Below the pieces are notes generated by a model. It ran no database searches. It was not told the origin of the DNA and saw only the letters and a list, made by a program, of their open reading frames with translations. Positions 9,427-49,529 of a stretch of DNA of 49,529 bases are shown in pieces. Source of the stretch: Coriobacteriia bacterium (GTDB taxonomy: Bacteria; Actinomycetota; Coriobacteriia; Anaerosomatales; PALSA-660); NCBI GenBank assembly GCA_025361445.1, contig JANYLP010000056.1, forward strand, positions 1-49,529, given 5' to 3'. How positions within the stretch are numbered: position 1 is the stretch's first letter; each line of letters opens with the position of its first letter. The position numbers were made by a program, and so were the translations under genes.

Positions 9427-10143
9427 ATGGAAACCACGAAGCGCGTTCTTGTCGTCGAAGACGAGAAGGCGATCCTTGACGCCGTGACGGCGTATCTGGA
9501 GCGCGACGGCTACTGGGTGACCCCTGTCGGCGACGGCGCGGCCGCCCTGGAACAGGCCTCCCGCAAGGCCTTCGACCTGGTCGTGCTCGACCTGAACCTC
9601 CCGAAAGTCTCAGGCGAGGAAGTCTGCCGGCGTATCCGTGACGTCTCCGATGTGCCGATAATCATGCTGACGGCGAAGGGCGCCGAAGAGGAGCGCATAA
9701 AGGGACTCGAGATGGGCGCCGACGACTATCTTGTGAAGCCCTTCTCGCCGCGTGAGCTCACCGCCCGTGTACGAGCCCTCCTTAGGCGCGCGCATGCCGA
9801 GTCGGACCCGCAGCGCGACCGCATGGACTTCGGCGACCTCTCCATCGACCTGCGGTCTCACCGCGTCCACCTCGACGGCGCGGAAATCGAGTTGACGGCG
9901 AGCGAATACAAGTTGCTCGTCACGCTCGCCCGTTACCCGGGGCGGGTCTATCCGCGCATGGAGCTGGTCGAGAAGGTGCTCGGGTACGACTTCGAGGGCT
10001 ACGAGCGGGCCATCGACTCCCACGTGAAGAACCTTCGGGCGAAGCTCGACGACGATCCCCGCGAGCCCCGCTTCATCCACACGGTGACCGGCGTCGGCTA
10101 CCGCTTCGAGGCGGAGCGCACTGTGCCGGAGAGCACCGTCTGA
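9427..10143 (+). CDS. OmpR/PhoB-family response regulator
   Basis: Start at ATG 9427 (METTKRVLVVEDEK). Receiver domain (DLVVLDLNLP, MLTAKG, KPF) followed by a winged-helix output domain (LT..EYKLL..LA..PGRV..R..L...V). Confidence 0.9.
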   Translation: METTKRVLVVEDEKAILDAVTAYLERDGYWVTPVGDGAAALEQASRKAFDLVVLDLNLPKVSGEEVCRRIRDVSDVPIIMLTAKGAEEERIKGLEMGADDYLVKPFSPRELTARVRALLRRAHAESDPQRDRMDFGDLSIDLRSHRVHLDGAEIELTASEYKLLVTLARYPGRVYPRMELVEKVLGYDFEGYERAIDSHVKNLRAKLDDDPREPRFIHTVTGVGYRFEAERTVPESTV

Positions 10144-12519: not shown

Positions 12520-12618
12520 GTCCTGCCACCCCCTGATTCGGTCGATGCGCTTCGTGCGCATCCTCGGCTCACACGGCCCTTTGTCATCCGTGCGCCCGTG
12601 CGGTATTCTTCTACCCGA

Positions 12619-12650
12619 CCTTTAACTCGGTCCCGTGAGGCCGGCAAGGG
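12619..12650 (+). promoter_or_regulatory. PyrR-binding hairpin (pyr leader)
   Basis: CCTTTAACTCGGTCCCGTGAGGCCGGCAAGGG. The flanks CCUUU/AAGGG can pair and the loop carries UCCCGUGAGGCC. That matches the Bacillus-type PyrR box UCCAGAGAGGCU at 9 of 12 positions by eye. It lies upstream of pyrR. Confidence 0.65.
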
Positions 12651-31978: not shown

Positions 31979-32509
31979 TCAGATGTAGCTCTTGGCCAGC
32001 GCGTCCAGCTCGATGTGGTCCGTTTCCACGGCCGATACCGCCTGCCATACCTCGATGAGGCGGGCGTTGGTAGCCCGGTCGGCGAAGTCCGCGTAGAGAG
32101 CACTCGCGCGCCGCTCGCGGCGGGCGGACTCGTCGATGTCCGCGTCCCAGCCTCCGAGTTCGGTCCCGGCCTCTCGGAGATCCGCGGGCTTCGGCACGCC
32201 GGCGATCTTGCAGAAGACCGAGCAATGTTCCGTCTCGACCGCGGCCAGCCGCTTGTAGGCGCTCGCGAGGGCCGGGTTGTCGGTGCGCAGCGACATGGCG
32301 AGGTAGAAACGCGCGTTCGAAAGCTCGATGTCGATGGCGGTCTCGAGATCGGCACGCTCGACTTCGGTCAGTTGCACGACGTTGATGTCGAGCGGGTAGT
32401 CGCCCGTGTCCACCATCAGCTCGCGATGCGCGCCGCAGAAGGGGCACATCGCCGGGGCCTCGGAGCCGAGATACGTCTCGCCGCAGATGCGGCATCGGTA
32501 GATCTTCAT
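31979..32509 (-). CDS. Rubrerythrin-like protein with N-terminal rubredoxin-type finger (reverse rubrerythrin architecture)
   Basis: ATG 32509 with AGGGA upstream. CRICG...(13 aa)...CPFCG is followed by a ferritin-like four-helix region with E...ExxH twice (AVETEH, AVETDH). The longer track ORF (to 33148) has no support. Confidence 0.8.
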   Translation of the reverse strand: MKIYRCRICGETYLGSEAPAMCPFCGAHRELMVDTGDYPLDINVVQLTEVERADLETAIDIELSNARFYLAMSLRTDNPALASAYKRLAAVETEHCSVFCKIAGVPKPADLREAGTELGGWDADIDESARRERRASALYADFADRATNARLIEVWQAVSAVETDHIELDALAKSYI

Positions 32510-32710
32510 CGGGAGTCCCTTTCCGGCTTGTGCGTGCGGGAGCACCGCGGCGCGATCATGTGAGCGTCGACACGAGTATAGACCGCCCGGGATGTGCGCA
32601 TTCCATGCCTGAGCAGGGCGGATGTCATCCCGGTCTGCTACGCTGGCGCGGCGCAGCACGCAATGCGGCGGTCGCGGCGGAAGTGTGTCCAAGGCGTCGT
32701 GAGGAGCAGG

Positions 32711-37069: not shown

Positions 37070-37954
37070 TCAGGACTGCTGAGCGACGGCTTTCGTGATG
37101 TCCCGCGGACCGAGCGCCTGTCTCCAGAGCGGGCCTGTGAGCTGTGGAAGGCCGTCTGCGTACGTGGGACGGCCCTCTTCGCGGTAGATGACCCCGATCG
37201 GGACCCTGCACGCCTCGGGCGAACATGACATGTCCGAAAGCGACGACATCGTGAGCGCCATCGCGGCCTGACGGTCGGTCGCGTCCCAGCCGCTCTCCTC
37301 GAGCTTGTAGACGCGCTCCCTGAACCAGGCGTGGGTGTTGAGCTTGTTCCACGTCACGCAGGGCTGGAACACGTCGAGCACCGCGAAGCCACGGTGGCTG
37401 ATCGCTTCCTTCATGAGGCCGGTGAGGTGTTCCACATCGTCGGAGAAGCCGCGCGCGACGAACGTGGCGCCCTCTGCGATCGCGAGGCCGACCGTGTTGA
37501 CCGGCTGTTCGAGCACGCCGCCGGGCGTCGAGGGCGTGTGCACGCCCTGCGCGGTCGTAGGGGAGGCCTGGCCCGTCGTGAGCCCGTAGACCTGGTTGTC
37601 GTGCGTGATGGCGGTCATGTCGAGGTTGCGGCGGCAGCTGTGCGCGAAGTGCCCCAGTCCGATGCCGAATGCGTCGCCGTCGCCCATCTCGACCACAACG
37701 GTCAGTTCGGGGTTCGCGAGGTGGAGGCCGGTCGCTACGGGAAGCGCGCGCCCGTGGAGGGCGTGAAAGCCTTGAGTACGGGTGAAGTCGGCGCCGTTGC
37801 CGTGACAGCCGATCCCCCAGACGACGGCGAGCGCCTCTGTGGGGATGCCCAGTTCGGCGTAGGCGGTGCGCAGTGCCCGCCACATGCCGAAGTTGCCGCA
37901 GCCGGGGCACCAGGTCGGGACGTTCGGGGTCTCGAAGTCACTTGGCGTGGTCAT
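37070..37954 (-). CDS. korB: 2-oxoacid:ferredoxin oxidoreductase beta (TPP-binding) subunit
   Basis: WCPGCGNFG and the TPP motif GDGDAFGIG. GGAGGTGG Shine-Dalgarno sequence upstream. Confidence 0.92.
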   Translation of the reverse strand: MTTPSDFETPNVPTWCPGCGNFGMWRALRTAYAELGIPTEALAVVWGIGCHGNGADFTRTQGFHALHGRALPVATGLHLANPELTVVVEMGDGDAFGIGLGHFAHSCRRNLDMTAITHDNQVYGLTTGQASPTTAQGVHTPSTPGGVLEQPVNTVGLAIAEGATFVARGFSDDVEHLTGLMKEAISHRGFAVLDVFQPCVTWNKLNTHAWFRERVYKLEESGWDATDRQAAMALTMSSLSDMSCSPEACRVPIGVIYREEGRPTYADGLPQLTGPLWRQALGPRDITKAVAQQS

Positions 37955-39758
37955 CGGAGACCACCTCCTTCACCGTCTCGAAGACCTGTTCGGGAGAGAA
38001 CGGTCTGCCGTCGTAGCGGTTGATGCGCCAGTCGAACGTCCGCAGGCACTCCTGGCGGATCAGGCCCTCGAGCTGACCGGTGTAGTTGCCCTCGACCACC
38101 ATCGTGCGGGTCGACCTGTCCATGAAGGCCGCGACGGCATCGGCGGGGAAGGGCCAGAGCGTCACGATCTGCATGACGCAGGCCCGGATCCCCTCGGTCG
38201 CGAGCCACTCGACGGCCTCGAGCACCGGGCCCTTGGTCGAGCCGAAACACACGATCGAGATGTCCGCCCTCTCGGCGTCGCACCCGAAGCGGGCGGGTTG
38301 CGGGGCGAGCTTGCGTGCGAGCTCGAGCTTCCGCATGCGCTTCTCGTTCTGTGCGGTGCGGTTCGCGGGCTCTTCTCCCTGTGCACCCCAGCCGTACTCG
38401 TCGTGCTCATAGGAGTTGACGAGTTGCGACGCGCCCTTGACGCCGGGGAGGGCGCGTGTGCTGACACCGTCCTCAGTGACCTTATACCTGAGATAGAGGC
38501 CTGCATCGTCCAGTGCCTCGGGTCGGCTCGCTACGTCGCCCTCGGTCAGGAGCTTGCCGCGATCGATCGTCACCTTCGACAGATCGAAGGGCGGCAGCGA
38601 TTCGCGGTTATCCGAGAGGTAGCTGTCGCCGAGCAGTATCACGGGGGTCTGGAGCTGGTCGGCGAGGTTGAACGCCTTCCACGTCAGCTCGAACGCGTCC
38701 GCTCGGTCGCCGGGTGCCAGGATGACACGGGGGAACTCGCCCTGAGCGGCGTGGAGTACGAATCGAAGGTCGGACTGCTCGGTCCATGTGGGAAGGCCCG
38801 TCGCAGGGCCGGGGCGGGTGAAGACGCCGCACACGATGGCCGACTCGCTCACGCCGGCCAGTCCGAGGCCCTCCACCATCAGTGAGAAGCCGCCGCCTGC
38901 CGTGGCGCACATCGCCCGCGCGCCTCCGAAGGCGGCGCCGATCACCATGTTCATGGCGGCGATCTCGTCTTCGGTGTGCTTCACGACGACGCCGTATTCG
39001 CGGTCGTGCGACGCCATGAAGTGCAGTAACGACGACGCCGGCGTCATCGGGTATGCGCAGTACATCCCGACGCCCGCAGCCAGGGCACCCAGTCCGATCG
39101 CCTCGTTGCCGTCGACCAGGATCTGCGGGGGAGCGTCAGGCGTGGGTGCGAGGCGGACCGGGAAGGGACAACCGGCTGCGGCGCCGTACTCGTGGCCCTT
39201 GGCCGCGATGGTGACGTTGAGCTCGGCGACCTCGGGCGCTTTGTGCGCGAACTGAGCACGGAGCGAAGCGGTCAGGAACTCGAGAGGGTATCCGGTCAGG
39301 CCGAGTACCGCACCGAGCGCGGCGACGTTGCGCATGATGCGTTGGCCGCCCGCTGCGGCGACGATGTCATCGAGCGGGGCGGCGACGATGCAGAAGCGTG
39401 CAGGGTCCGCGAGCGAGGCCACAGAGGTCGTCTTCGGGTCGTAGACGATCGCGCCGCCATCAACGAGTCCTTGGGAGTGTCGCTCCACCGTCTCGGTGTT
39501 GAGCGCGACAAGCACGTCGAGCGGCGTGACGTGGCAATGGATCGGAGTTGGCGAGACGCGCACCTGGTAAGAGTTGTGGCCACCCCGGATCAGGGATGGG
39601 TACTCGGTCAGGTCGAACGTGTGCAGGCCGCCCTGTGCGAAGCAGCGCGCGAGGGTGCGGCCGGCGGCCTTGATGCCGAAACCGGCCTGCCCCCCGATCA
39701 TGATCTGCACGTCCGGTCTCGAGCTGCCCCGCGGGTCTGCCGGCATCAGCTTCTCCAT
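37938..39758 (-). CDS. korA: 2-oxoacid:ferredoxin oxidoreductase alpha subunit with fused N-terminal gamma domain
   Basis: Start proposed at ATG 39758 (MEKLMPAD...). Gamma-like IGGQAGFGIKAAGRTLA is followed by alpha-like VDGNEAIGLGALAAGV..YCAYPMTPAS. It overlaps korB by 17 nt. The 759-aa track ORF extends into the coaBC promoter and gene and is not credible. Confidence 0.9.
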   Translation of the reverse strand: MEKLMPADPRGSSRPDVQIMIGGQAGFGIKAAGRTLARCFAQGGLHTFDLTEYPSLIRGGHNSYQVRVSPTPIHCHVTPLDVLVALNTETVERHSQGLVDGGAIVYDPKTTSVASLADPARFCIVAAPLDDIVAAAGGQRIMRNVAALGAVLGLTGYPLEFLTASLRAQFAHKAPEVAELNVTIAAKGHEYGAAAGCPFPVRLAPTPDAPPQILVDGNEAIGLGALAAGVGMYCAYPMTPASSLLHFMASHDREYGVVVKHTEDEIAAMNMVIGAAFGGARAMCATAGGGFSLMVEGLGLAGVSESAIVCGVFTRPGPATGLPTWTEQSDLRFVLHAAQGEFPRVILAPGDRADAFELTWKAFNLADQLQTPVILLGDSYLSDNRESLPPFDLSKVTIDRGKLLTEGDVASRPEALDDAGLYLRYKVTEDGVSTRALPGVKGASQLVNSYEHDEYGWGAQGEEPANRTAQNEKRMRKLELARKLAPQPARFGCDAERADISIVCFGSTKGPVLEAVEWLATEGIRACVMQIVTLWPFPADAVAAFMDRSTRTMVVEGNYTGQLEGLIRQECLRTFDWRINRYDGRPFSPEQVFETVKEVVSDDHAK

Positions 39759-39833
39759 CGTCGACGCGACGTCGTGCTTCCTGCTCAGTCTATCTTCCCG
39801 GGTCGCGGTCGGCGCACGCGGTATCATGCCGGC

Positions 39834-41042
39834 ATGGAGAACAGCCCTCGCATACCCCTCGTCGTTCTCGGCGTGACCGGCGGCATCGGCGCCTACAAGG
39901 CGTGCGAGCTCGCCCGTGAGCTCATGCGTCGCGGCATGCGCGTCAAGACGGTCATGACTGACGCGGCGCAGAAGTTCGTGACCCCGCTCACCTTCCGTAC
40001 GCTGACCGGCGAGGACGTCGGGGTGTCTCTGTGGGACGATCCGACCAGGCACGTGCACCACATCTCGCTCGCCGCTGAGGCCGACGTGATCGTGATAGCC
40101 CCGTGTACGGCCAACGTCATCGCGAAGGTGGCCCACGGGCGCGCCGACGACCTGTTGACCACGACGGTACTGGCCACAGAAGCCCCTGTGGTGCTCGCTC
40201 CCGCCATGAACACCCACATGTGGCGTGATGACGCCACCGTGGCCAACGTGGCGGTTCTGCGCGATAGGGGCGTCCTTTTCGTCGAGCCGGGGTCGGGGGA
40301 GCTCGCCTGCGGGGATGTGGGAGAGGGCCGCTTGGCGGACGTGATCGCGATCGCGGACACGGTCGAGCGTGAGGTCGCGCGCACGAGGGCGCTGGCGGGC
40401 GTGCGCGTGGTCGTGACCGCGGGCCCCACCCGCGAGCCGCTCGACGCGGTCCGCTTCCTCGGGAATCGCTCGAGTGGGCGGCAGGGATACGCGATCGCGG
40501 AGGAAGCTACGCGGCGCGGCGCAACGGTCACACTCGTGAGCGGGCCGACGACGCTACCGGACCCCTTCGGCGTGACGACCATCCGTGTCGAGACCGCGGC
40601 GCAGATGCTCGCGGCCGTCGACGATGAGTACGGCGAGGCCGACGTCGTCATCGCCGCTGCGGCCGTTGCCGATTTCCGGCCGGCCTCGACGGTCGCCGGC
40701 AAGTTGAAGAAGGCGGAAGCGCCGGAGGAGCTCGCACTCGAGCGCACGGTGGATATCCTCGCGTCGCTCGGCGCGCGCAAGGATGGCCGCGTGCTCGTCG
40801 GTTTCGCAGCGGAAGCGGGCGACCCGGTCGACAGCGCGCGGGTCAAACTCGCGGCCAAGAACCTCGACCTGATCGTCGCCAACGACGTCACCGAGCCCGG
40901 CGCCGGTTTTGAAGTGCGCACCAATCGGGTGACGTTCGTGTCCGCGAACGGCGACGAGGAGCTACCCTGCATGGACAAGCGCGCGGTCGCGCGAGAGCTG
41001 CTCGACCGCATCGAGACGATCCTGAAAGGCGGAAGACGATGA
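39834..41042 (+). CDS. coaBC: Bifunctional phosphopantothenoylcysteine decarboxylase / phosphopantothenate--cysteine ligase
   Basis: ATG 39834. Motifs GVTGGIGAYK, PAMNTHMW, TAGPTREPLD.VRFL.N.SSG and AAAVADF. Confidence 0.93.
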   Translation: MENSPRIPLVVLGVTGGIGAYKACELARELMRRGMRVKTVMTDAAQKFVTPLTFRTLTGEDVGVSLWDDPTRHVHHISLAAEADVIVIAPCTANVIAKVAHGRADDLLTTTVLATEAPVVLAPAMNTHMWRDDATVANVAVLRDRGVLFVEPGSGELACGDVGEGRLADVIAIADTVEREVARTRALAGVRVVVTAGPTREPLDAVRFLGNRSSGRQGYAIAEEATRRGATVTLVSGPTTLPDPFGVTTIRVETAAQMLAAVDDEYGEADVVIAAAAVADFRPASTVAGKLKKAEAPEELALERTVDILASLGARKDGRVLVGFAAEAGDPVDSARVKLAAKNLDLIVANDVTEPGAGFEVRTNRVTFVSANGDEELPCMDKRAVARELLDRIETILKGGRR

Positions 41043-41655: not shown

Positions 41656-42165
41656 CTACTTCTCCACAAAGACGACGTTGTCGATGAGCCACTTGCCGCC
41701 GGAGTACTTGAATACGACGTCGGTCTTCAGCAGCGCAGTATCTTCGGGGTTGACGATGGTCAACGTGTTCCCGGCGATGCTGGCCTTCCCTCCTGCTTCG
41801 CTCTGCAGGAGCTTGAGCGTCGATATCGACATGGGTTCGGCGGGAAGCCCATCGTTCGCCAGCGTCTTCGCGTTGGACTTCACGAAGTTCGCAACGTAGT
41901 CCTTGGTTGTGACTATGTTCTCCAGTTTCGCAATCACCTCAGGGGTCACGTCTTCCGCCCCATTCACTGCCTCCAGTTTGGAGGTTGCCAGAGCCATCAC
42001 GGTATCCGCGTCCTTCCGGGTCAGCACGGCGTCAGGGGTATTCACCGGGTTCTCCGCCGGGGTCTGCACCTGGGTCCGCTCCGACGAAAATTCCTTCACC
42101 GGGGAGCACCCCGCCCCGGCGACGGCGACAAGCAGCAGACACACCAGCGGGATCATCCTCTTCAT
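41656..42165 (-). CDS. Hypothetical lipoprotein
   Basis: MKRMIPLVCLLLVAVAGAGCSP is a signal peptide plus lipobox. GAAGGGAAG lies upstream. The mature part is K/N/E/T-rich and matched no family I can recognise. Its codon usage is visibly less GC-biased than that of its neighbours. Confidence 0.7.
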   Translation of the reverse strand: MKRMIPLVCLLLVAVAGAGCSPVKEFSSERTQVQTPAENPVNTPDAVLTRKDADTVMALATSKLEAVNGAEDVTPEVIAKLENIVTTKDYVANFVKSNAKTLANDGLPAEPMSISTLKLLQSEAGGKASIAGNTLTIVNPEDTALLKTDVVFKYSGGKWLIDNVVFVEK

Positions 42166-42560
42166 CGGGACATCTTCCCTTCATGGGGCCTGATTGAGAT
42201 GACGACGATTTCCTGAAGTCCCTCGGTTGGATCATACAGACCCGCATAGCTTCCAAGTATCAACGGAAACGGGGCGGCTCCAACCCCATACTGGTTCATC
42301 TCACTTTGCAGCAATTACAAACGCGTCTACCAAGTCCGACCAGACTCTTCGCAGGTGGAGGGCTCGTTCCGGAAAACCGGGGCGGGCCCTCTCCTCGTCT
42401 CTGGCCGGCTCCTGCACCGCGTCCGCGCAATCGGGTAGACTCAGCAGCGCCCCGCAAGGGGTGGCGTTGGAGCCGGGATATGCGCTCGCCGTGCAGTTCC
42501 GGCTCCGCGTCTCTTCTCATGCAGTTCGCGATCCGCACGGATCCCGGCGAGAGGACGATC

Positions 42561-44324
42561 GTGGCGCCTGTGCTCCTTTCCGGTAATGAGGCCATCGCCC
42601 GCGGGGCTTGGGAAGCCGGCGTGCGCTTCGGCTCGGGCTACCCGGGCACCCCCTCCACCGAGATCCTCATCGCCCTGGCCAAGCTCCCCGGCGTTCGGTG
42701 CGAGTGGGCGCCGAATGAGAAGGTGGCGCTCGAAGTCGCTATCGGTGCGGGAATGGCGGGGCACCGTTCCCTCGTGACGATGAAGCACGTGGGGCTGAAC
42801 GTCGCCGCCGACCCGCTGATGACCCTTGCGTACACAGGCGTCTCGGCCGGCGTTGTCATCCTCGTGGCCGACGATCCCGGCATGCATTCCTCCCAGAACG
42901 AGCAGGACTCCCGCAACTGGGGCCCCTTCGGGAAGATCCCGATCCTTGAGCCGTCCGATAGCGCCGAGGCCCTCGCCATGGTCCGCGATGCGTTCGGTCT
43001 CTCAGAGCGGCTCGACATGCCGGTTCTGGTCCGCTCAACGACCCGGCTGAGCCATGGCAAGACGCTCGTCGAGGTGGGGGAGCGCGTCGAATCCGACACG
43101 CCCGGCTACCGCAAGTCGGCGGCGAAGTGGGTCATGGTGCCCGGGAACGCGCGTGGGCGACGCGTGGACCTCGAGAAGCGTCTCGCTGCGGCGCGCGCGG
43201 AGAGCGAATCGTTCGCGTACACGGTCGAGGAGATGCGCGACGCCTCGCTCGGCATCGTGTGCTCCGGCGTCGTGTATCAGTACGTGCGGGAAGCACTTCC
43301 CGACGCGTCCACGCTTCGGATCGGGATGTCGTTCCCACTGCCGGAGGACCGCATCCGGGAGTTCGCCGGCAAGGTCGGTCGCCTGGTCGCCATCGAAGAA
43401 CTCGACCCATACCTGAGGTCGAGCCTTGCAGCGATGGGGCTCGCCGTCCAGGTGGTACCGGTCCCGCACATAGGTGAGCTATCGCCCGGCCGGATCGCCG
43501 ACGCGTTCGGCATCGCGGCGCCCGATACGCGCGATCCGATGGATGATCTCCCGGCGCGGCCGCCGATGCTGTGTCCGGGCTGCCCACACCGTGGAGTGTT
43601 CGCGGCGCTGCGGACAATGGGGGCGGTCGTTCAGGGTGACATCGGGTGCTACGCGCTTGCGGCGCTACCACCGCTCTCCGCGATGGACAGCTGCGTCGAC
43701 ATGGGCGCCTCCATCGGCATGGCGCACGGCATGAGCGTCGTCAACGCGTCCACGGGCGTCTCAGGCGTCCCCGTGGTCGCGGTGATCGGCGACTCGACCT
43801 TCGCCCACTCGGGCCTCACAGGGCTTCTGAACGCTGTGTACAACAATACCGACACCACGGTCGTGATACTCGACAACCGCACAACCGCGATGACCGGCCA
43901 CCAGGACAATCCCTTCACCGGACGCACCCTGATGGGCGTTCCGGCCCCCGAGATCGACATCGAGGCCGTGGTGCGTGCGCTTGGCGTCACCAGCGTGCAG
44001 ACGGTGAACCCGAACCTTCTCAAGCCGACGGCGAAGGCCCTCGGCGAAGCGGTCGCGTTCCCGGGTGTCTCGGTCGTCATCGCCCGCGCACCCTGCGCGC
44101 TGCTCGACAAGGAGCCGCACGACCCGTTCGCCGTGGACGAAGACGAGTGCACCGCCTGCGGGGAGTGCATCCGTCTGGGATGCCCGGCGATCAGTCGTGA
44201 CGACACGGCCAAGGCCGTCATCGACACCGCGCTGTGCGTGGGGTGCCGTCAGTGCGTGCAGGTGTGCAGGTACGGAGCGATCGTGCGCGCGGGGCGCGCC
44301 TGTGACATCGGGAGCGGCCTGTGA
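42561..44324 (+). CDS. iorA: Indolepyruvate:ferredoxin oxidoreductase alpha subunit
   Basis: Start proposed at GTG 42561 (GAGAGGA upstream), with ATG 42519 as an alternative. Motifs LLSGNEAIARGAWEAGV and CPGCPHRG. Two C-terminal 4Fe-4S motifs (CTACGECIRLGCP and CVGCRQCVQVC). Confidence 0.9.
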   Translation: MAPVLLSGNEAIARGAWEAGVRFGSGYPGTPSTEILIALAKLPGVRCEWAPNEKVALEVAIGAGMAGHRSLVTMKHVGLNVAADPLMTLAYTGVSAGVVILVADDPGMHSSQNEQDSRNWGPFGKIPILEPSDSAEALAMVRDAFGLSERLDMPVLVRSTTRLSHGKTLVEVGERVESDTPGYRKSAAKWVMVPGNARGRRVDLEKRLAAARAESESFAYTVEEMRDASLGIVCSGVVYQYVREALPDASTLRIGMSFPLPEDRIREFAGKVGRLVAIEELDPYLRSSLAAMGLAVQVVPVPHIGELSPGRIADAFGIAAPDTRDPMDDLPARPPMLCPGCPHRGVFAALRTMGAVVQGDIGCYALAALPPLSAMDSCVDMGASIGMAHGMSVVNASTGVSGVPVVAVIGDSTFAHSGLTGLLNAVYNNTDTTVVILDNRTTAMTGHQDNPFTGRTLMGVPAPEIDIEAVVRALGVTSVQTVNPNLLKPTAKALGEAVAFPGVSVVIARAPCALLDKEPHDPFAVDEDECTACGECIRLGCPAISRDDTAKAVIDTALCVGCRQCVQVCRYGAIVRAGRACDIGSGL

Positions 44325-44911
44325 GCGTCACATCCGTCATGCTCGTCGGCGTGGGCGGTCAGGGCACGATCCTGGCATCAGACGTCCTTGCCAAGGTCGC
44401 CGCGACCTCAGGACTCGACGTGAAGCTCGCCGAGGTCCACGGCATGTCCCAGCGAGGCGGTTCCGTCGACACCGTCGTGCGCTTCGGGGAACAGGTCTTC
44501 TCGCCGACGATCGACCCGGGGGTGGCCGACCACCTCGTGAGCTTCGAGCTCATCGAGGCCGCGCGTTGGCTGCACTGGCTCAGGCCCGGCGGCCGGCTCG
44601 TCGTCAACAACAACGTCATCGCCTCGCTACCCATGCTCACGGGGTCCTGCGTGATGCCGACAGGACTCGAAGCGGCGCTCGCATACGAAGGCGCGGTATT
44701 CCTGGATGCCGAGGAGCTCGCGTGCGAGGCGGGTTCTCCACGCAGCGCCAACATCGTGCTGATGGGTGCGCTCTCGGTGGGGCTGCCGTTTCCGGAGCAA
44801 GTCTGGCGCGACGTGATCACGAAGCGCGTCCCGCCGAAGACCGTCGAGGGTAATCTCGCGGCGTTCGAACTCGGCATGCGGGCGTGCGCGCACGGCGTGT
44901 GCGAGATCTGA
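44321..44911 (+). CDS. iorB: Indolepyruvate:ferredoxin oxidoreductase beta subunit
   Basis: GTG overlaps the iorA TGA. N-terminus VGVGGQGTILASDVLA. Confidence 0.9.
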   Translation: MSVTSVMLVGVGGQGTILASDVLAKVAATSGLDVKLAEVHGMSQRGGSVDTVVRFGEQVFSPTIDPGVADHLVSFELIEAARWLHWLRPGGRLVVNNNVIASLPMLTGSCVMPTGLEAALAYEGAVFLDAEELACEAGSPRSANIVLMGALSVGLPFPEQVWRDVITKRVPPKTVEGNLAAFELGMRACAHGVCEI

Positions 44912-44927
44912 GCGAGGCCGCACTGAG

Positions 44928-46214
44928 CTAGAAGCCGCCCACCAACGGGCTGCCGTTGGCCAGGTTACCCTTCGCGTGGATATGGCACGCAGCGCAGTTC
45001 GTCGGGAACACGGTCGTGTCGACCGTCGTCGCAGTGATGGCGCTCGCGCGCGCATCGTGTGAGGCCGAGTCCCACACGTGGCACGTGTTGCAGAAGAACC
45101 GGAAATCCTTGACCCCACCGCCGACCCGCGCCGTCAGCACGCCGTGGATCGTCTTGTCGCCACTCGCCGACACGATCTCGGTCTGGATCGCGTCCCCGTT
45201 GGCCGTACCGTGAGGATCGTGGCACACGCGGCACTCGAGCACATCACCGTACTTATAGCCCATATCCGGCCGCAGGTATGCATTGGTGGTCGTCGAGTCG
45301 CTTCGCTGGTCGAACCCGTGCACATTCGTCTGGTACAGGGTCTGCACGTCTAACGTGGTTGTCGCGGCGTTACGCGCAAGCACGGCGCCCGCCCACGGAG
45401 CGGTCTCCGCGGCCGTCGGCAGCGCCTGCCCGTTGTGGCACCGGAAGCAGAAGCCCTTCTCATCCAGGCGTGGCTGCAACCAGGCCCCCGCAGGGCTGGG
45501 GTTGTGGGGATCGACCAGCGGGAGCGTCTTGGTGGTCGCGTGGGTGTTGTGGCAGTTCTGGCACGTCATGCGCGCACCGGTCACCTGGTCCTGAGGCAGC
45601 AGGGGATGCTTCGAGTTGGAGGCCTCATTCAGGGTCAGCTTCGTATAGATATCCGTCTCGTCGGGGTTGGATGCTGAGGCGGTGTGGCACTGCATGCAGA
45701 CCATGTACCCCTCGTACTTGAGCAGCCCCGTGTTCCTGGACGAGTGCGACTCGTGGCAGGTATCGCACACGATGCCGGCCCCCGTCGGGGGAGGCGGGAT
45801 GTTGCGGTGGCCTGACGCCTCGAATGCGGTCAGGTCGCCCATCGGCAGGGTCGAGCCGGGACCGTGGCACTTGTAGCAGAAGCTGTTGCCGGCGGGCGTG
45901 TCGGTGGTCAGGACGCACGGTGACGATCCGTTCGTCCGCATCAGGTTCGCGGCCGGTGTGCCGGTCTTGTGCAGCGGTACGTGGCACGTTATGCACACGA
46001 ATGGCTGGTCGACTGTCGGCGTAGCGCCCTCTGAGTGCTTCGACTTGAGCAGCGGATCGAGGAACTGCTGGTACGAGGACGCAGGCGCGTGGCAGGTCGG
46101 ACACATCGTCTGCTTACCGACGTCCGGGAAACGGATCAGCGTATCGACGCCCGCCGCGACGTGCGTGGCGTGGCAGATGCAACCAGACGCGGCGCTGCCG
46201 AACTCGTGCGGCTG
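44928..46214 (-). other. Multiheme cytochrome c domain of the giant protein
   Basis: Motifs in order: CICH, CPTCH, CITCH, CYKCH, CDTCH, CMQCH, CQNCH, CFRCH, CRVCH, CNTCH and CAACH. Several are of the CxxCHxxH type (CHESH, CHNTH, CHDPH). Confidence 0.85.
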
Positions 46215-49200
46215 GGCGTTGGCCCCCGGTATCGCCACGATGGATCGGGCCAGCGCCTCGACCGACGGTGAGCTGAGCGTGCCCGACGCGTCGATTGCGG
46301 TCACGGAGTAGAAGTACGGCTCGCCGTCGTTGACCGCCCAGTCGATGTATCCGAGGTTGGTGATGGGGATCACCGTGAGCGTAGTGATCGTCGAGGTGGC
46401 CGCCAGGCTGGCCGGGCCGCGCTTGACGATGTAGCCCATGATCGCCGGGTTCGAGGACGCGGCCCACTGCACGAAGACCCCGCCAAGGATCGGCGTAGCC
46501 GTGATTCCCAGGGGCCGAGGAGGGCGATAGGTGACGGGTGCGATGTACGGCCAAACGGCGGCCAGCGTGTTGGAGGTCGTCGGACTCTCGCCGCGTGAAT
46601 CAACGGTGGAGATCGCGTACCAGTATCGGGTCGATGAACGCCGGCCTGTATCGATGTAGGAGCAGTCGAGCACTCCGCCTGTGGTCGTGGCGATGGCGGA
46701 GAACGTCGCGCCGTCTTCCGAGCGCCAGATCCGGTAGGAGGCCGTCCCGACGGAGTCAGTCGTCGCCGTCCAGTCGATGTAGACGGAATCGCCTGTCGGC
46801 GCCTTCGCATACACGGCATCGGGCGCGGTCGGCAGGGGGGAGTTGTCCGTGGTGACAGTGACGGTGGCCGAAAGCGTAGAAGTGGCACCAGCACTGTTCA
46901 CGGTCATGACCCTGATCGCATACGGGGTCGCCTTGTGCAGGCCGACGATGTCGACGAGCGGACTCGTGACCGACGCGTAGAGCGCCCCATCGACGAACAC
47001 GTCGTATCGGGCGATCCCGCTCGGGGTTGCGACCACCGGAGTCCAGCTCGCGTTGATGCTCTGGTAGCTGGTGGCGGCCCCGATGACGGTCGGAGCTGGC
47101 GGTGTCTGCGTGTCGACGAGGAAGAGATGGGATCTGACGAGTTCATCGGCGCGACCCGTGCCCGTGTCCTTGGTCCAGTAGTAGAGCGTGCTGACGGGCC
47201 CCGGGGGGGTCAGTGCGGTCGCGTAGTCCGTCCAGGGGCCGGAGACGCTGGTCCAGCTGTAGCGAGTCGTCCGCGGCAGTCCCCCGGTGTCCGGAGGAAA
47301 CGACGCCAGACTGATCGTAGGCGTCGCGTTCACGAACCAACCGCCGAGTCCGTTCGCAGTGAACGGTGCGGTCGTCAACAGTGTCGTGTAGGGCGCTGTC
47401 TCGAGCGCGGAGGTCAGAAGCGCCGTCGCCGGAGCGCTGTCACTTGACGAGTTGCCGGCAGTGTCCACGGTCCTGACGGTGATCGAGTACAGGGTGTACG
47501 GTGACAAGCCGGCGACCGACAGAGAGCCCGTGATCGAGTTGCCGTAGTAGGCGCCGTCAACGTAGACCTCGTAGCGGGCGACCCCGGACACCGCGTCGGT
47601 GCCTGCGGTCCACGTGACCAGGGCGCTCGATGTAGTGACCGCGGAGACGCCGACCGAGGCCGGCGCCGTCGGGTTCGACGCGTCGGTCTTCAGGGAGATG
47701 CTGCGAACCGTCTCAGCATCGCTTCCGACGTTCACTGAGTAGTAGTAGAGCGTCTGCGTGCCCTCCATCGCCGAGAAAGGGGCGACGTACGCGCTGAAGG
47801 GGCCAGCGGCCGAAGTCCAACCGTAGTAGGTCGTAGCCCCGACCGTCGATGTCGCGGTGATCATCGGCGCGGCACCCTTGTACCAGCCGCTCGCCCCGTT
47901 CGGAGAGACCGGGTTGACCGTCATCGTCGTCGTGGGTGGCACCAGGTTGTTGTTTTGCAGGATCGTTCCGTTGACACCGACGATCCAGCCGCGAGACGTG
48001 CCGGAAAACGCGATCGAGGACAGTGCCTGGTTGGTTCCTGCGTCGCGCATGGTCCACGTTTCGCCGCCGTCGATCGTGCGAACGGCTATGCCGCCTCCTC
48101 CGACGGCCCAGCCGGTATTGGCATCTGCGAAGCGGATCCAGTAAAGAGGCGAGCTCGTGGGCGTGGACTTGCGGGTCCACAACGCTCCGCCGTTGGTCGT
48201 CTTGAGGATGACGCCGGAGTCTCCGACCGCGTAGCCGGTGTTCGCGTCGCGGAAGTAGACGTCCCAGAGGTTCGCGTTGGCGGTCGTCGACTGCGACGTC
48301 CAGTTGATGCCGTGGTTGGCGGTGACCCAGACCGCGTTGTTGCCTGAGACGCGGGTCGTCACGGCCCAGGCCTTCTCGGCGTCCACCATGTAGAGACCGG
48401 TCACGGGCTGGGTAGGCAACGTCGACGCGGTCGTCCACGTCGAGCCGGCGGTGGTGGTGAATTTGAGCGCACCTGTCCCGGCGATGATCGCGCGGCTCGG
48501 ATCACCGGAACCGATCGCGGCGAGGTTGACGGTGACACCCGAGGTCTGGGCGAGCCAGGTCAGACCACCGTTGACAGTGCGCCGGACCGTGCCGTTATCT
48601 CCTGCGGTCCAGCCGTTGAGCGCGTCGCTCATGAGGACTTGGTTGAGAGACACCGTGCTGCCGGTCTTCTGTTGAGTCCACGTCTGACCGCCGTCCGCGG
48701 TGCGCATCATCGTTCCGCCGGTGCCGGAGGCCCATCCGTTTGCAGCGTCCGTGAACATCACGGAGTTGAGCGTGCTCAACGTCCCGTATTGTAGGGAGGT
48801 CCAGGTCGTTCCGCCGTCGATGGTGCGGCGGACCGTGCCGGAGTCACCAACAAGATACCCGGTGTTCCCGCTGAACCAGGAGCCATAGACGCCGGTGGCC
48901 GGATCGAGAGTGGACGTGGGCATTCCGGCAACCTGTGAGACCCATGTCACGCCGCTGTCGGTGGATTTCTGCACGATGCCGAAGCTGCTTCCGAGCCAGC
49001 CGGTGGTAGTCGAGATCGGGAATACCGTTCGAACAGGGTTCGTCCCGGCGCCGGTCGTCTGCGTGGTCCAGCTCGTGCCGCCGTTGATGGTCGTGCGCAT
49101 GGTGCCGTTGTTGCCCGAGACCCACACCACGGATGCGCTGACACCACGGACGGAGAGGAGCGCCTGACCACCGGACGCCGAGGAACTCCACGTCTCGCCG

Positions 49201-49529
49201 GCGTTGATGCTCTTTCGGATGGTGCCGGTCGCGCCAACGGCGTATCCGGTGTTGGCGTCCGCGAACCACACCGCGTTTAGGTTCTGGACGGTCCCCGACG
49301 GCTTGGCAACCCATGTAGTCCCGCCGTCGATGGTCTTCAGGATCGTGCCGGTGTTGCCCACCGCGAAGCCGGTGGTCGCGCTGGTGAACCAGAGGCCGTT
49401 CAGCTGGTTCGTCGTCGTGGATGTCTGCGCGACCCAGTCGATACCGTTGCCGTTATTGGTAGCAGGGCGATGTTGTCGGGCACTTTTGGGTGCCGCCGCA
49501 GTGCCGGCTTTGGTCGCATTTCTGGCGTT
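44928..49529 (-). CDS. Giant secreted/surface protein, N-terminus off-window: Asp-box beta-propeller repeats + beta-sandwich/FN3 stalk + C-terminal multiheme cytochrome c domain
   Basis: The minus-strand frame stays open from 49361 to the window edge (...NGIDWVAQTSTTTNQLNGLWFTSATTGFAV-GNTGTILKTIDGGTTW...). The track's 'M' at 49361 is therefore an internal GTG. At least 12 repeats of about 40 aa carry (T/S)x(D/N)GGxTW. FN3-like modules follow. The last ~430 aa hold 10 CxxCH motifs and one CxCH. Confidence 0.85.
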   Translation of the reverse strand, partial: NARNATKAGTAAAPKSARQHRPATNNGNGIDWVAQTSTTTNQLNGLWFTSATTGFAVGNTGTILKTIDGGTTWVAKPSGTVQNLNAVWFADANTGYAVGATGTIRKSINAGETWSSSASGGQALLSVRGVSASVVWVSGNNGTMRTTINGGTSWTTQTTGAGTNPVRTVFPISTTTGWLGSSFGIVQKSTDSGVTWVSQVAGMPTSTLDPATGVYGSWFSGNTGYLVGDSGTVRRTIDGGTTWTSLQYGTLSTLNSVMFTDAANGWASGTGGTMMRTADGGQTWTQQKTGSTVSLNQVLMSDALNGWTAGDNGTVRRTVNGGLTWLAQTSGVTVNLAAIGSGDPSRAIIAGTGALKFTTTAGSTWTTASTLPTQPVTGLYMVDAEKAWAVTTRVSGNNAVWVTANHGINWTSQSTTANANLWDVYFRDANTGYAVGDSGVILKTTNGGALWTRKSTPTSSPLYWIRFADANTGWAVGGGGIAVRTIDGGETWTMRDAGTNQALSSIAFSGTSRGWIVGVNGTILQNNNLVPPTTTMTVNPVSPNGASGWYKGAAPMITATSTVGATTYYGWTSAAGPFSAYVAPFSAMEGTQTLYYYSVNVGSDAETVRSISLKTDASNPTAPASVGVSAVTTSSALVTWTAGTDAVSGVARYEVYVDGAYYGNSITGSLSVAGLSPYTLYSITVRTVDTAGNSSSDSAPATALLTSALETAPYTTLLTTAPFTANGLGGWFVNATPTISLASFPPDTGGLPRTTRYSWTSVSGPWTDYATALTPPGPVSTLYYWTKDTGTGRADELVRSHLFLVDTQTPPAPTVIGAATSYQSINASWTPVVATPSGIARYDVFVDGALYASVTSPLVDIVGLHKATPYAIRVMTVNSAGATSTLSATVTVTTDNSPLPTAPDAVYAKAPTGDSVYIDWTATTDSVGTASYRIWRSEDGATFSAIATTTGGVLDCSYIDTGRRSSTRYWYAISTVDSRGESPTTSNTLAAVWPYIAPVTYRPPRPLGITATPILGGVFVQWAASSNPAIMGYIVKRGPASLAATSTITTLTVIPITNLGYIDWAVNDGEPYFYSVTAIDASGTLSSPSVEALARSIVAIPGANAQPHEFGSAASGCICHATHVAAGVDTLIRFPDVGKQTMCPTCHAPASSYQQFLDPLLKSKHSEGATPTVDQPFVCITCHVPLHKTGTPAANLMRTNGSSPCVLTTDTPAGNSFCYKCHGPGSTLPMGDLTAFEASGHRNIPPPPTGAGIVCDTCHESHSSRNTGLLKYEGYMVCMQCHTASASNPDETDIYTKLTLNEASNSKHPLLPQDQVTGARMTCQNCHNTHATTKTLPLVDPHNPSPAGAWLQPRLDEKGFCFRCHNGQALPTAAETAPWAGAVLARNAATTTLDVQTLYQTNVHGFDQRSDSTTTNAYLRPDMGYKYGDVLECRVCHDPHGTANGDAIQTEIVSASGDKTIHGVLTARVGGGVKDFRFFCNTCHVWDSASHDARASAITATTVDTTVFPTNCAACHIHAKGNLANGSPLVGGF
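47951..49529 (-). repeat. Coding tandem repeats: Asp-box (BNR/Ycf48-like) propeller blades
   Basis: Blade motifs seen in the translation: TIDGGTTW, SINAGETW, TINGGTSW, STDSGVTW, TIDGGTTW, TADGGQTW, TVNGGLTW, TTAGSTW, ANHGINW, TTNGGALW and TIDGGETW. Each is followed about 20 aa later by (F/W)xDxxxG(W/Y)AVG-type strands. Enough blades are present for about two 7-bladed propellers. Confidence 0.75.

What the first reader, a model, noticed from the sequence alone, without database searches (positions are those of the whole stretch)
44928..49529. Giant beta-propeller / FN3 / multiheme cytochrome fusion protein at the window edge
**What the sequence shows.** A single minus-strand reading frame of more than 4.6 kb is still open at the window end. 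Read from N- to C-terminus it encodes:
- At least 12 Asp-box blades (xxDGGxTW), enough for about two Ycf48/BNR-type propellers.
- Two copies of a beta-sandwich module plus an FN3 module, then two more FN3-like modules.
- A ~430-aa C-terminal domain with ten CxxCH haem-binding motifs and one CxCH.

No C-terminal LPXTG-type sorting signal or terminal TM helix is visible. Any anchor or signal peptide would be in the missing N-terminus.

**Why it is unusual.** Multiheme cytochromes are uncommon in Actinobacteria. I do not recognise this domain order from characterised extracellular electron-transfer proteins such as MtrC/OmcA, the OmcS/OmcZ filaments or the Thermincola surface cytochromes.

**Working hypothesis (inference only).** This is a wall-spanning or surface-displayed redox protein. 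The FN3 stalk would space a haem domain away from the membrane, and the propellers would bind a substrate, mineral or polymer.
Basis: partly seen in the sequence, partly recalled or inferred. Interest (0 to 1): 0.8.

Follow-up and report, generated by a model that had tools for sequence, protein, structure and literature searches.

The report
Giant secreted propeller–stalk–eleven-haem cytochrome
The open frame at the contig end is a real gene for a ~1,900-residue secreted protein of an uncultured anaerobic actinobacterium that carries an eleven-haem electron-transfer domain on a long rod of non-redox modules; it is an uncharacterised variant of the surface cytochromes bacteria use to pass electrons to minerals.

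Summary
Window 44928-49529 (-) is one unbroken frame. Pfam finds Ycf48/BNR propeller blades, FN3 modules and multihaem cytochrome domains.

The window is a whole contig, so the frame runs off a contig end. An independent assembly (99.98% identical over 5.2 kb) gives the intact gene of 1,912 aa (1,941 aa from an upstream ATG). Its parts are:
- a Sec-type signal peptide;
- 21 Asp-box blades (three 7-bladed propellers);
- six Ig/FN3-type beta modules (AF2 pLDDT 88);
- a 434-aa C-terminal domain with 10 CxxCH, one CxCH and 11 conserved extra His, consistent with eleven bis-His haems.

The CxCH aligns with a canonical CxxCH in distant homologues, so it is a contracted haem site.

About 45 clusters have the same architecture, mostly labelled Coriobacteriia. 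The haem module also caps other extracellular scaffolds. Cultured relatives (Anaerosomatales) respire Fe(III) and carry 17-18 multihaem cytochromes.

Best reading: a secreted, envelope- or surface-associated electron-transfer cytochrome on a non-redox scaffold. No paper describing this architecture was found. I rate it a new variant of a known kind, of moderate interest.

The parts
44928..49449 (-). 3' 4.5 kb (residues 408-1912 plus the stop codon) of the giant cytochrome gene. This is the part shared with independent assembly L001.
   Evidence: Open frame. It is 99.98% identical to L001 11191-16401 and 100% identical to P0001, 1,912 aa.
49450..49529 (.). Last 80 nt of the contig, which diverge from the independent assembly. 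Probably a contig-end artefact or a strain variant, not the gene's true upstream sequence.
   Evidence: No BLAST match to L001. A 50-mer from this stretch is absent from metagenome contigs. The window is the whole contig.
47952..49445 (-). 13 Asp-box (xxDGGxTW) blades: blades 9-14 of propeller 2 and all of propeller 3. Propeller 1 and the start of propeller 2 lie off the contig.
   Evidence: Pfam PSII_BNR E 2.8e-32. Blade spacing is 39-47 aa, with 21 blades in P0001. Ycf48 structures match at E ~1e-15.
47682..47951 (-). Beta-sandwich module X1 (NGxxGWY...TYYGW...TLYYYS). No Pfam family matches it.
   Evidence: AF2 model residues 11-93, pLDDT ~90. No Pfam hit at E<=1.
47406..47681 (-). FN3 module 1.
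   Evidence: Pfam fn3, best stretch at window aa 622-702. AF2 and Foldseek agree.
47109..47405 (-). Beta-sandwich module X2, a repeat of X1.
   Evidence: AF2 model residues 192-283. No Pfam hit. The invariant G..W motif is shared with X1.
46836..47108 (-). FN3 module 2.
   Evidence: Pfam fn3 E 5.5e-07 when scanned alone, plus Ig_RIMBP2.
46233..46835 (-). FN3-like modules 3 and 4.
   Evidence: NCBIfam matches the FN3 region of CbhB at E 6.1e-19, window aa 899-1091. Pfam fn3 is weak. AF2 gives beta modules at model residues 383-454 and 487-572.
44931..46232 (-). C-terminal undecahaem c-type cytochrome domain (434 aa): 10 CxxCH, 1 CxCH and 11 conserved non-motif His.
   Evidence: Pfam Paired_CXXCH_1, Cytochrome_C7, Cytochrom_c3_2 and Mtrc-MtrF_II-IV_dom. 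Motif positions. Conservation of Cys and His. Profile match to MtrA 6r2q_A at E 6.3e-16.
46170..46181 (-). Contracted haem-binding motif C-I-C-H (P0001 residues 1496-1499).
   Evidence: Conserved as CxCH in about 29 homologues. It aligns, with a one-residue gap, to a canonical CxxCH in distant members that have 11 CxxCH.

Best explanation
**What it is.** The gene encodes a secreted c-type cytochrome of about 200 kDa from an uncultured anaerobic Coriobacteriia (Anaerosomatales/OPB41-like) bacterium.

**Shown from sequence.**
- A Sec-type signal peptide.
- Three Ycf48/BNR-type 7-bladed propellers.
- A rod of six Ig/FN3-type modules.
- A C-terminal domain with eleven haem c attachment sites, one of them a contracted CxCH, and eleven conserved distal His. 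This pattern is typical of hexacoordinate electron-transfer haems rather than a catalytic site.

**Inferred.**
- After export and haem attachment by a system II maturation machinery, the protein stays in or on the Gram-positive envelope.
- The haem domain acts as a short haem wire. Its N-terminal half is MtrA/NrfB-like and its C-terminal part resembles MtrC domain II/IV. It passes electrons between other envelope cytochromes and extracellular acceptors or donors such as Fe(III) minerals, humics or partner cells.
- The propellers and the FN3 rod carry no redox cofactors. They serve as a scaffold that positions, spaces or attaches the haem module.
For: **The gene is intact and real.**
- An independent Logan assembly gives an uninterrupted 1,912-aa ORF, identical to the window over 5,211 nt but for 1 nt.

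**Export.**
- An in-frame ATG in L001 gives MRIPRRASSTRRIRIDRKRPLPSQGTALLVQLAVIVALLVPALAAA|YLSTGA.
- 35 of 37 homologues with a complete N-terminus have a hydrophobic h-region (Kyte-Doolittle score above 2). They also have small residues at -3/-1 before a conserved YLSTGP.

**Haems.**
- 10 CxxCH plus CICH.
- Distant homologues have CxxCH at the CxCH position, giving 11 CxxCH in total.
- A CKCH motif is a proven haem site in a Kuenenia tetrahaem cytochrome (Ferousi 2019, as summarised in PMC7096707).
- 11 non-motif His are conserved in 94-100% of 34 homologues.

**Relatedness of the haem domain.**
- Pfam PF22113, PF09699, PF14522 and PF14537 all score above their gathering cut-offs.
- The profile matches MtrA at E 6.3e-16 and NrfB at E 2.8e-06.

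**Scaffold.**
- AF2 pLDDT 88 for six beta modules, with Foldseek matches to FN3/Ig arrays.
- Among proteins that cover the whole 428-position profile (about 50 of the 150 listed representatives), the same undecahaem module always sits at the C-terminal end of proteins of 440-3,017 aa.
- Their N-terminal parts differ: propellers + FN3, FN3 only, Gly_rich_2 + YDG + InlB-repeat, or none. So it is a portable cap on extracellular scaffolds.

**Lineage.**
- The best named IleRS hits are Coriobacteriia and Anaerosomatales, 68-81% identical.
- Cultured Anaerosomatales are Gram-positive and have 66-68% GC, like this contig. They carry 17-18 multihaem cytochromes and cytochrome c biogenesis genes. Parvivirga is an obligate Fe(III) reducer (PMC9686372).

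**Possible partners.**
- In two relatives a hexahaem gene overlaps the 3' end.
- One of these loci also has a second hexahaem gene and a Ferric_reduct/NAD_binding_1 membrane protein.
Against: - No experiment exists on any member of the family.
- The haem-domain structure could not be modelled (pLDDT 49), so the haem packing is unknown.
- No cytochrome c maturation genes, quinol dehydrogenase or partner cytochrome lie on this contig.
- Gene context is not conserved among relatives.
- No wall-anchoring element (LPXTG, SLH, lipobox, C-terminal TM helix) is present, so retention at the surface is assumed, not shown.
- The 1,470 non-redox residues cannot conduct electrons, so the protein alone is not a conduit.
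- The direction of electron flow is undetermined.
- Whether the cultured Fe(III) reducer has a member of this family was not established.
Confidence: 0.6

Rival explanations
1. Redox enzyme. The propellers would be the catalytic or substrate-binding part, as in PQQ quinohaemoprotein dehydrogenases, cytochrome cd1 or hydrazine synthase. The haem domain would be their built-in electron relay.
For: Propeller + cytochrome c fusions are a known enzyme design (established knowledge). The propellers are the largest and a well-conserved part of the protein, with many invariant G/W positions.
Against: The propellers match only the cofactor-less Ycf48/BNR type. The same triple-propeller module is widespread in Bacteroidota, Ignavibacteria and Zixibacteria. 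There it is fused to T9SS sorting, PKD or Ig domains with no redox part. Six beta modules (about 570 aa) separate the propellers from the haems. The haem module also occurs without any propeller. All 11 haems appear to be bis-His.
Confidence: 0.12
2. Mainly a structural or adhesive surface protein (matrix, sheath or S-layer-like). The haems would have a secondary role such as redox sensing, electron storage or detoxification of oxidants, not respiration.
For: Three quarters of the protein is adhesin-like scaffold. There is no conserved respiratory gene neighbourhood. The gene sits among housekeeping and 2-oxoacid:ferredoxin oxidoreductase genes.
Against: An 11-haem bis-His chain related to MtrA/NrfB and MtrC domains is costly and typical of long-range electron transfer. 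Two relatives have adjacent extra multihaem genes. The lineage respires Fe(III) using multihaem cytochromes.
Confidence: 0.2
3. Assembly chimera or pseudogene. The long frame would be an artefact of joining repeated blade sequences, or the gene would be disrupted just upstream in this strain.
For: The frame ends at a contig end. The last 80 nt disagree with the other assembly and were not found elsewhere.
Against: An independent assembly, seen in 3 samples, has the whole 5.7-kb ORF intact. About 45 homologous clusters of 1,680-1,990 aa have the same domain order. Conservation runs the length of the protein.
Confidence: 0.04

Closest known systems
MtrA/DmsE-family decahaem cytochromes (Shewanella Mtr complex, PDB 6R2Q chain A) and the pentahaem NrfB
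   Same: These are the best solved-structure relatives. The haem-domain profile aligns hemes 2-6 to MtrA at E 6.3e-16 and to NrfB at E 2.8e-06. Both share the CxxCHxxH spacing and doubled-CXXCH units. Both are presumed to be linear bis-His haem wires.
   Different: It scores 49 bits against TIGR03508, far below the 192-bit cut-off. It has 11 sites in 434 aa, not 10 in about 300. There is no porin partner. The host is Gram-positive. It is fused behind about 1,470 residues of non-redox modules.
MtrC/OmcA/MtrF outer-surface decahaem cytochromes
   Same: Pfam PF22113 (MtrC/MtrF domains II/IV) matches the last ~160 residues above its gathering score, 48 vs 30 bits. Both are proposed to face extracellular acceptors.
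   Different: It has no four-domain staggered-cross architecture, no lipoprotein signal and no MtrAB partners. Only one pentahaem-type domain matches.
Thermincola potens wall and surface cytochromes (OcwA/TherJR_2595, TherJR_1122), the model for Gram-positive extracellular electron transfer
   Same: Same proposed job: multihaem cytochromes placed in or on a Gram-positive wall and fed by other cytochromes (PMC7096707).
   Different: No OcwA chain is among the nine PDB sequence matches at E<=1. OcwA has 9 haems, two of them high-spin. Here there are 11, apparently all bis-His. OcwA has no propeller or FN3 scaffold.
Multihaem cytochrome repertoire of cultured Anaerosomatales (Anaerosoma tenue, Parvivirga hydrogeniphila)
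   Same: Same class, with IleRS 71% identical to an Anaerosomatales MAG. Same GC content. These genomes carry 17-18 multihaem cytochromes described as MtrA/OmcH/OcwA homologues, with biogenesis genes (PMC9686372).
   Different: That paper describes no propeller-FN3-undecahaem protein. Whether those strains carry a member of this family was not determined here.
Ycf48/HCF136 photosystem II assembly factor
   Same: Same blade type: PF14870 at E 2.8e-32, and PDB 2XBG/5OJR at E ~1e-15.
   Different: Ycf48 is a single 7-bladed propeller of about 330 aa in phototrophs. Here there are 21 blades in a non-phototroph. The NF010237 equivalog score is 120.6 against a cut-off of 326.
Contracted CKCH haem-binding motif of the Kuenenia stuttgartiensis tetrahaem cytochrome (Ferousi et al. 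2019)
   Same: A C-x-C-H site inside a multihaem cytochrome.
   Different: A different protein family and phylum. Here haem attachment is inferred only from positional equivalence to CxxCH in homologues.

Membership tests
Multihaem c-type cytochrome | Multiple CxxCH haem-attachment motifs | tested here: met
   10 CxxCH plus 1 CxCH in 434 aa. All are invariant or nearly so in 34 homologues. Pfam cytochrome families score above their cut-offs.
Multihaem c-type cytochrome | Export signal, since haem c is attached outside the cytoplasm | tested here: met
   The N-terminus recovered from L001 has a positively charged n-region, a hydrophobic h-region and an AAA|Y site. The pattern is conserved in 35 of 37 homologues. 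No dedicated signal-peptide predictor was available.
Multihaem c-type cytochrome | Cytochrome c maturation system (CcsBA/ResBC or Ccm) in the genome | not testable with these tools
   None among the genes of the 49.5-kb contig. The rest of the genome is not available. Cultured relatives have biogenesis genes next to their cytochrome clusters.
Multihaem c-type cytochrome | Covalently bound haem in the mature protein | not testable with these tools
   Needs haem staining or mass spectrometry.
DmsE/MtrA decahaem family (TIGR03508) | Whole-protein score at or above the curated cut-off (192.2 bits) | tested here: not met
   49.4 bits, covering model positions 3-186 of 258.
DmsE/MtrA decahaem family (TIGR03508) | Ten haems in about 300 aa, working inside an outer-membrane porin | tested here: not met
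   11 sites in 434 aa. No porin gene nearby. The lineage is Gram-positive.
MtrC/OmcA surface decahaem cytochromes | Pentahaem domain II/IV fold (PF22113) | tested here: met
   48.3 bits against a cut-off of 30, window aa 1359-1519.
MtrC/OmcA surface decahaem cytochromes | Four-domain architecture with two beta-barrel domains and a lipoprotein signal | tested here: not met
   No lipobox Cys follows the signal. Only one PF22113-type region matches. The haem-domain model was too poor to judge the fold.
Ycf48/HCF136 | Ycf48-type Asp-box blades (PF14870) | tested here: met
   E 2.8e-32, 112.6 bits against a cut-off of 27.
Ycf48/HCF136 | Single 7-bladed propeller protein meeting the equivalog cut-off (NF010237, 326 bits) | tested here: not met
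   120.6 bits. There are 21 blades in a 1,912-aa protein.
Fibronectin type III / Ig-like tandem array | FN3 profile match and beta-sandwich fold | tested here: met
   PF00041 at E 6e-15. AF2 pLDDT 88.3 with six beta modules. Foldseek top hits are FN3/Ig arrays at E 1e-18 to 1e-11. Modules X1 and X2 have the fold but no Pfam family.
OcwA-type Gram-positive terminal reductase | Detectable homology to OcwA (NrfA/c554-like nonahaem core with two high-spin haems) | tested here: not met
   No OcwA chain is among the nine PDB sequence matches at E<=1, with either the single sequence or the profile. Eleven conserved distal His leave no obviously open haem.
Contracted CxCH haem-binding site | C-x-C-H at a position equivalent to a canonical haem site | tested here: met
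   CICH aligns with CxxCH of distant homologues across a one-residue gap. It is conserved in about 29 homologues.
Contracted CxCH haem-binding site | Haem actually attached at that site | not testable with these tools
   Needs peptide mass spectrometry or a structure.

The most novel reading that the evidence does not exclude
The protein could be the building block of a self-assembled conductive surface appendage. The C-terminal undecahaem modules would stack head-to-tail, as in OmcS-type filaments; a weak OmcS match exists at E 1.9e-04. The propeller-FN3 arms would project outward as a sheath or adhesin. This would give Gram-positive Coriobacteriia a new kind of cytochrome nanowire. It might explain the ferrihydrite-induced 'pili-like' appendages reported for Parvivirga. 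A contracted CxCH haem would be a conserved functional element of it.
Probability: 0.06. Interest if true: 0.85.

Novelty: new variant of a known kind. Interest (0 to 1): 0.55.

Why it matters
How Gram-positive bacteria move electrons across and beyond a thick wall is known in outline only for Thermincola. In Actinobacteria it has not been worked out at the protein level.

This family offers a concrete, conserved candidate from the one actinobacterial lineage with proven dissimilatory Fe(III) reduction. It is a portable eleven-haem module displayed on long non-redox scaffolds.

It also provides comparative evidence, from about 29 sequences set against sister clades with CxxCH, that a contracted CxCH motif is a maintained haem site outside anammox bacteria.

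If confirmed, it would give targets for haem-protein biochemistry, for cryo-ET of subsurface Actinobacteria, and for annotation. Database entries currently call these proteins 'YCF48-related' or 'fibronectin type III domain-containing', which hides the cytochrome.

Tried and rejected
- **AF2 on the haem domain.** A 24-sequence alignment gave mean pLDDT 49. The model was not used, and no fold search was run on it.
- **Tracing the divergent 80-nt contig end.**
  - BLAST against L001 and against the window gave only matches of 13 nt or less.
  - An exact 50-mer scan of metagenome contigs found nothing.
  - Its origin stays unresolved.
- **Recovering the source contig beyond the window.** An exact look-up of the neighbouring IorB protein returned only the Logan contig. 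later showed that the window is the whole contig.
- **Genome-contig scan.**
  - It was dominated by the propeller pattern.
  - It returned mostly non-cytochrome 'YCF48-related' proteins of Bacteroidota, Ignavibacteria and others.
  - Only four full-length relatives were among the 80 loci kept, so the taxonomic survey is incomplete.
- **Literature searches.**
  - I searched multihaem with beta-propeller, FN3, BNR or Ycf48, and 'CXCH'. No paper on this architecture was found.
  - The Anaerosomatales supplement held nothing relevant.
  - The primary CKCH paper is not held.
- **Conserved operon.** Rejected. Neighbours differ between relatives, and only 2 of about 7 loci have an adjacent hexahaem gene.
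- **'Standalone' short haem-domain hits.** Several (P0137, P0147, P0152) look like truncated or frameshifted gene calls. They were not counted as separate architectures. P0162 (444 aa) does look standalone.
- **Overlap of long frames at 37938-41042.** Considered and dismissed. The domain positions show two divergent genes (OFOR and CoaBC) that do not really overlap.
Full report

Yes. The minus strand of window 44928-49529 translates into 1,533 codons with a single stop at the end. GC at the three codon positions is 0.53/0.59/0.84, the third-position bias shared by neighbouring genes.

Pfam gives hits above the gathering thresholds:
- PSII_BNR: E 2.8e-32, eight stretches.
- fn3: E 6e-15.
- Paired_CXXCH_1: E 1.8e-12.
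- Cytochrome_C7, Cytochrom_c3_2 and Mtrc-MtrF_II-IV_dom.

NCBIfam adds partial, sub-threshold matches to Ycf48, to the FN3 region of CbhB, and to DmsE-family decahaem cytochromes and NrfB. The last 434 residues hold ten CxxCH and one CICH. All but one Cys of that domain lie in these motifs. No other ORF of the window has two or more CxxCH.

**2. The gene is longer than the window shows, and the window ends at a contig end.**

A protein search found a 100%-identical 1,912-aa protein, P0001. It lies on a 16.4-kb Logan contig, L001, seen in three samples. Window 44239-49449 equals L001 16401-11191 at 99.98%, one mismatch in 5,211 nt, which gives K/N at one residue.

The last 80 nt of the window (49450-49529) match nothing in L001. 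A 50-mer from this stretch is absent from the metagenome collection. The window's own IleRS is recorded on a contig of exactly 49,529 bp, so the window is the whole contig. The frame therefore runs into a contig end inside a repetitive blade region. I treat the 80-nt tail as a contig-end artefact or strain variant. This is unresolved.

In L001 the frame extends to an ATG at 9887. That adds MRIPRRASSTRRIRIDRKRPLPSQGT in front of the called start and makes the protein 1,941 aa.

**3. Anatomy of the full protein** (P0001 numbering; window aa = P0001 - 379).

*(a) Signal peptide.*
- It has a positively charged n-region, a hydrophobic stretch ALLVQLAVIVALLVPAL, and then AAA|YLSTGATADRSWFWQN.
- Of 37 homologues with a complete N-terminus, 35 have small residues at -3/-1 directly before a conserved Y/F-L/I-S-T-G-P. 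Their h-region hydropathy is above 2.
- This is the Sec/SPase I pattern. A signal anchor is not excluded, because no dedicated predictor was available.

*(b) Propellers.* Residues ~30-905 hold 21 Asp-box blades spaced 39-47 aa apart, that is, three 7-bladed propellers. The window holds blades 9-21. Solved Ycf48 structures match at E ~1e-15.

*(c) Rod.*
- For residues 906-1478, AlphaFold2 on a 15-sequence alignment gives mean pLDDT 88.3 and six separate all-beta modules.
- Foldseek's best PDB matches are tandem FN3/Ig arrays: titin, RPTP-sigma, contactin and fibronectin, at E 1e-18 to 1e-11.
- Modules 2 and 4 are clear Pfam FN3. Modules 5 and 6 are FN3-like.
- Modules 1 and 3 are two copies of a beta-sandwich with no Pfam family.

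*(d) Haem domain.* This covers residues 1479-1912.

*(e) C-terminus.* It has no TM helix or LPXTG. It ends in F or L in all homologues.

**4. The haem domain.**

In an alignment of 34 homologues, all motif Cys and His are invariant or nearly so. Eleven further His are conserved in 94-100% of sequences, allowing a +/-3 column shift: positions 1487, 1502, 1544, 1620, 1641, 1687, 1709, 1783, 1819, 1870 and 1897. Eleven attachment sites plus eleven candidate distal ligands fit eleven bis-His haems, the usual state of electron-transfer haems. This is an inference from sequence.

The CICH site is conserved as CxCH in about 29 homologues. In more distant members, which have 11 CxxCH, the same alignment position is a canonical CxxCH, offset by a one-residue gap. 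A CKCH motif has been shown to bind haem in a Kuenenia tetrahaem cytochrome (Ferousi et al. 2019, as summarised in PMC7096707). So the CxCH is best read as a contracted, maintained haem site.

A profile of the domain finds these solved relatives:
- MtrA (6R2Q chain A) as the closest, E 6.3e-16, covering hemes 2-6.
- NrfB, E 2.8e-06.
- OmcS, weakly, E 1.9e-04.

No OcwA chain is among the nine matches. The AF2 model of this domain was unusable (pLDDT 49), as is common without haems.

**5. Relatives.**

About 45 clusters at 90% identity have the same propeller-rod-cytochrome order, at 1,680-1,990 aa. A few have extra X+FN3 repeats, reaching about 2,680 aa. Source names are 'YCF48-related protein', 'fibronectin type III domain-containing protein', 'hypothetical protein' or 'predicted CXXCH cytochrome'. 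The organisms are labelled Coriobacteriia, Actinomycetes and, once, Clostridiales. Four species-representative genomes, all Actinomycetota/Coriobacteriia MAGs, hold full-length copies.

An exhaustive profile search of 1.84 billion representatives gave 186 hits at E<=1e-30. Among the 150 listed, about 50 cover the whole 428-position profile, always at the C-terminal end of proteins of 440-3,017 aa.

Sampling seven of these shows several N-terminal parts:
- propellers + FN3;
- FN3 only;
- Gly_rich_2 + YDG + InlB-repeat + FN3;
- nothing.

The undecahaem module is therefore a portable C-terminal cap on varied extracellular scaffolds.

Conversely, the triple-propeller module occurs without haems in many Bacteroidota, Ignavibacteria and Zixibacteria proteins. 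There it is fused to T9SS sorting, PKD or Ig domains.

**6. Organism and context.**

The rest of the contig is housekeeping:
- PhoU, SepF, ProC, DivIVA, IleRS, LspA and RluD;
- a two-component system;
- the pyr/car operon;
- ABC transporters;
- rubrerythrin;
- two GGDEF-HD-GYP proteins;
- CoaBC;
- 2-oxoacid:ferredoxin and indolepyruvate:ferredoxin oxidoreductases.

This is an anaerobe's core chromosome. It has no cytochrome maturation genes and no second cytochrome.

The best named IleRS hits are Coriobacteriia (68-81%) and Anaerosomatales (71%). IleRS is 84% identical to that of the organism carrying homologue P0014. That locus shares CorA, CoaBC and POR synteny with the window.

The cultured Anaerosomatales are Gram-positive with 66-68% GC. 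They have 17-18 multihaem cytochromes per genome, with biogenesis genes beside them. Parvivirga is an obligate Fe(III) reducer (PMC9686372).

Neighbourhoods of the giant gene are not conserved. In two relatives a 439-aa hexahaem gene overlaps its 3' end. One of these loci also has a second hexahaem gene and a Ferric_reduct/NAD_binding_1 membrane protein. Here the next gene is the convergent IorB.

**7. Mechanism.**

Shown from sequence: export signal, eleven haem sites, non-redox scaffold, and family conservation.

Inferred: the protein is secreted, matured by a system II machinery and kept in or on the wall. Its haem module relays electrons between other envelope cytochromes and external acceptors or donors. 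The propellers and rod position or attach it.

By textbook domain sizes, six Ig-like modules would span roughly 20-25 nm and an 11-haem chain about 9 nm. That is comparable with a Gram-positive wall. This is my estimate, not a tool result.

Because the scaffold has no cofactors, the protein cannot be a conduit by itself. Which end is cell-proximal is unknown, especially if the signal is cleaved.

Rivals:
- a propeller enzyme with a built-in relay (0.12);
- a mainly structural or adhesive protein with accessory haems (0.20);
- an artefact or pseudogene (0.04).

**8. Comparison and novelty.**

It works like the surface and wall multihaem cytochromes of Thermincola and Shewanella, but it fails the membership tests for each family:
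- DmsE/MtrA: 49 bits against a cut-off of 192.
- MtrC/OmcA: one domain only, and no lipobox.
- OcwA: no detectable homology.
- Ycf48: 121 bits against a cut-off of 326, and three propellers.

No paper combining multihaem cytochromes with Ycf48/BNR/FN3 modules was found. The Anaerosomatales paper does not describe such a protein.

I therefore rate it a new variant of a known kind. It is real, conserved and uncharacterised, with two features of note: the scaffold architecture and the conserved contracted CxCH site. Its role belongs to an established category, in a lineage already known to be rich in multihaem cytochromes. Interest 0.55.

Noticed in passing
window 49450-49529: The last 80 nt of the contig do not match the otherwise identical independent assembly, and a 50-mer from them was not found in the metagenome collection. 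The divergence starts after a 6-nt insertion (CCGTTA) relative to L001. It may be a contig-end misassembly in the repeated blades, or a strain-specific rearrangement or insertion.
   Followed up: partly
L001 1038-5435 and 5451-9503 (upstream of the cytochrome gene, beyond the window end): Two same-strand giant ORFs (1,465 and 1,350 aa) have no Pfam or NCBIfam hit at all. The first starts with a Tat-like ...LTRREAIAG... motif and ends in hydrophobic Gly-rich segments. They sit between CorA and the cytochrome gene, where relatives (L083) have nothing, so they look like an insertion.
   Followed up: partly
L082 15739-17058; L084 15700-17019 and 17854-19816: In two relatives a 439-aa hexahaem cytochrome gene overlaps the stop of the giant gene. 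In L084 there is also a 203-aa hexahaem gene, a CarboxypepD_reg protein and a Ferric_reduct/NAD_binding_1 membrane protein. Together these could be an electron supply route. None of them is next to the gene in this contig.
   Followed up: partly
window 44931-44960 (C-terminus of the protein) and homologues: The final residue is F or L in every family member (…GGF, …GNF, …TRL, …TGL), after a conserved CxxCHxH. A conserved C-terminal aromatic or aliphatic residue in a Gram-positive secreted protein is unexplained.
   Followed up: no
window 32582-37065 (+): Two tandem paralogous GGDEF + HD-GYP (HD_5) proteins of about 700 aa lie next to a rubrerythrin gene (31979-33157, -). They suggest cyclic-di-GMP turnover signalling.
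   Followed up: no
window 37070-40553 (-), 42198-44911 (+): A 2-oxoacid:ferredoxin oxidoreductase pair and an indolepyruvate:ferredoxin oxidoreductase (IorA/IorB) flank CoaBC. IorB converges on the cytochrome gene, leaving only 16 nt between the two stop codons.
   Followed up: no
window 41656-42180 (-): A 174-aa ORF with coding-like GC3 (0.81) has no Pfam or NCBIfam match.
   Followed up: partly
window 11632-12621 (-): A GerM-like protein (Germane + Gmad2 domains) lies on the opposite strand to its neighbours, in a lineage described as non-spore-forming.
   Followed up: no
homologues P0010 and P0014 (second haem site); P0033, P0036, P0042-P0048 (last haem site): Other sites in the family also vary in spacer length. 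The second site is CxxxCH in two homologues. The last site is Cx4CH (for example CTAGGCH) in the distant clade. The haem-attachment spacing in this family is unusually plastic.
   Followed up: partly
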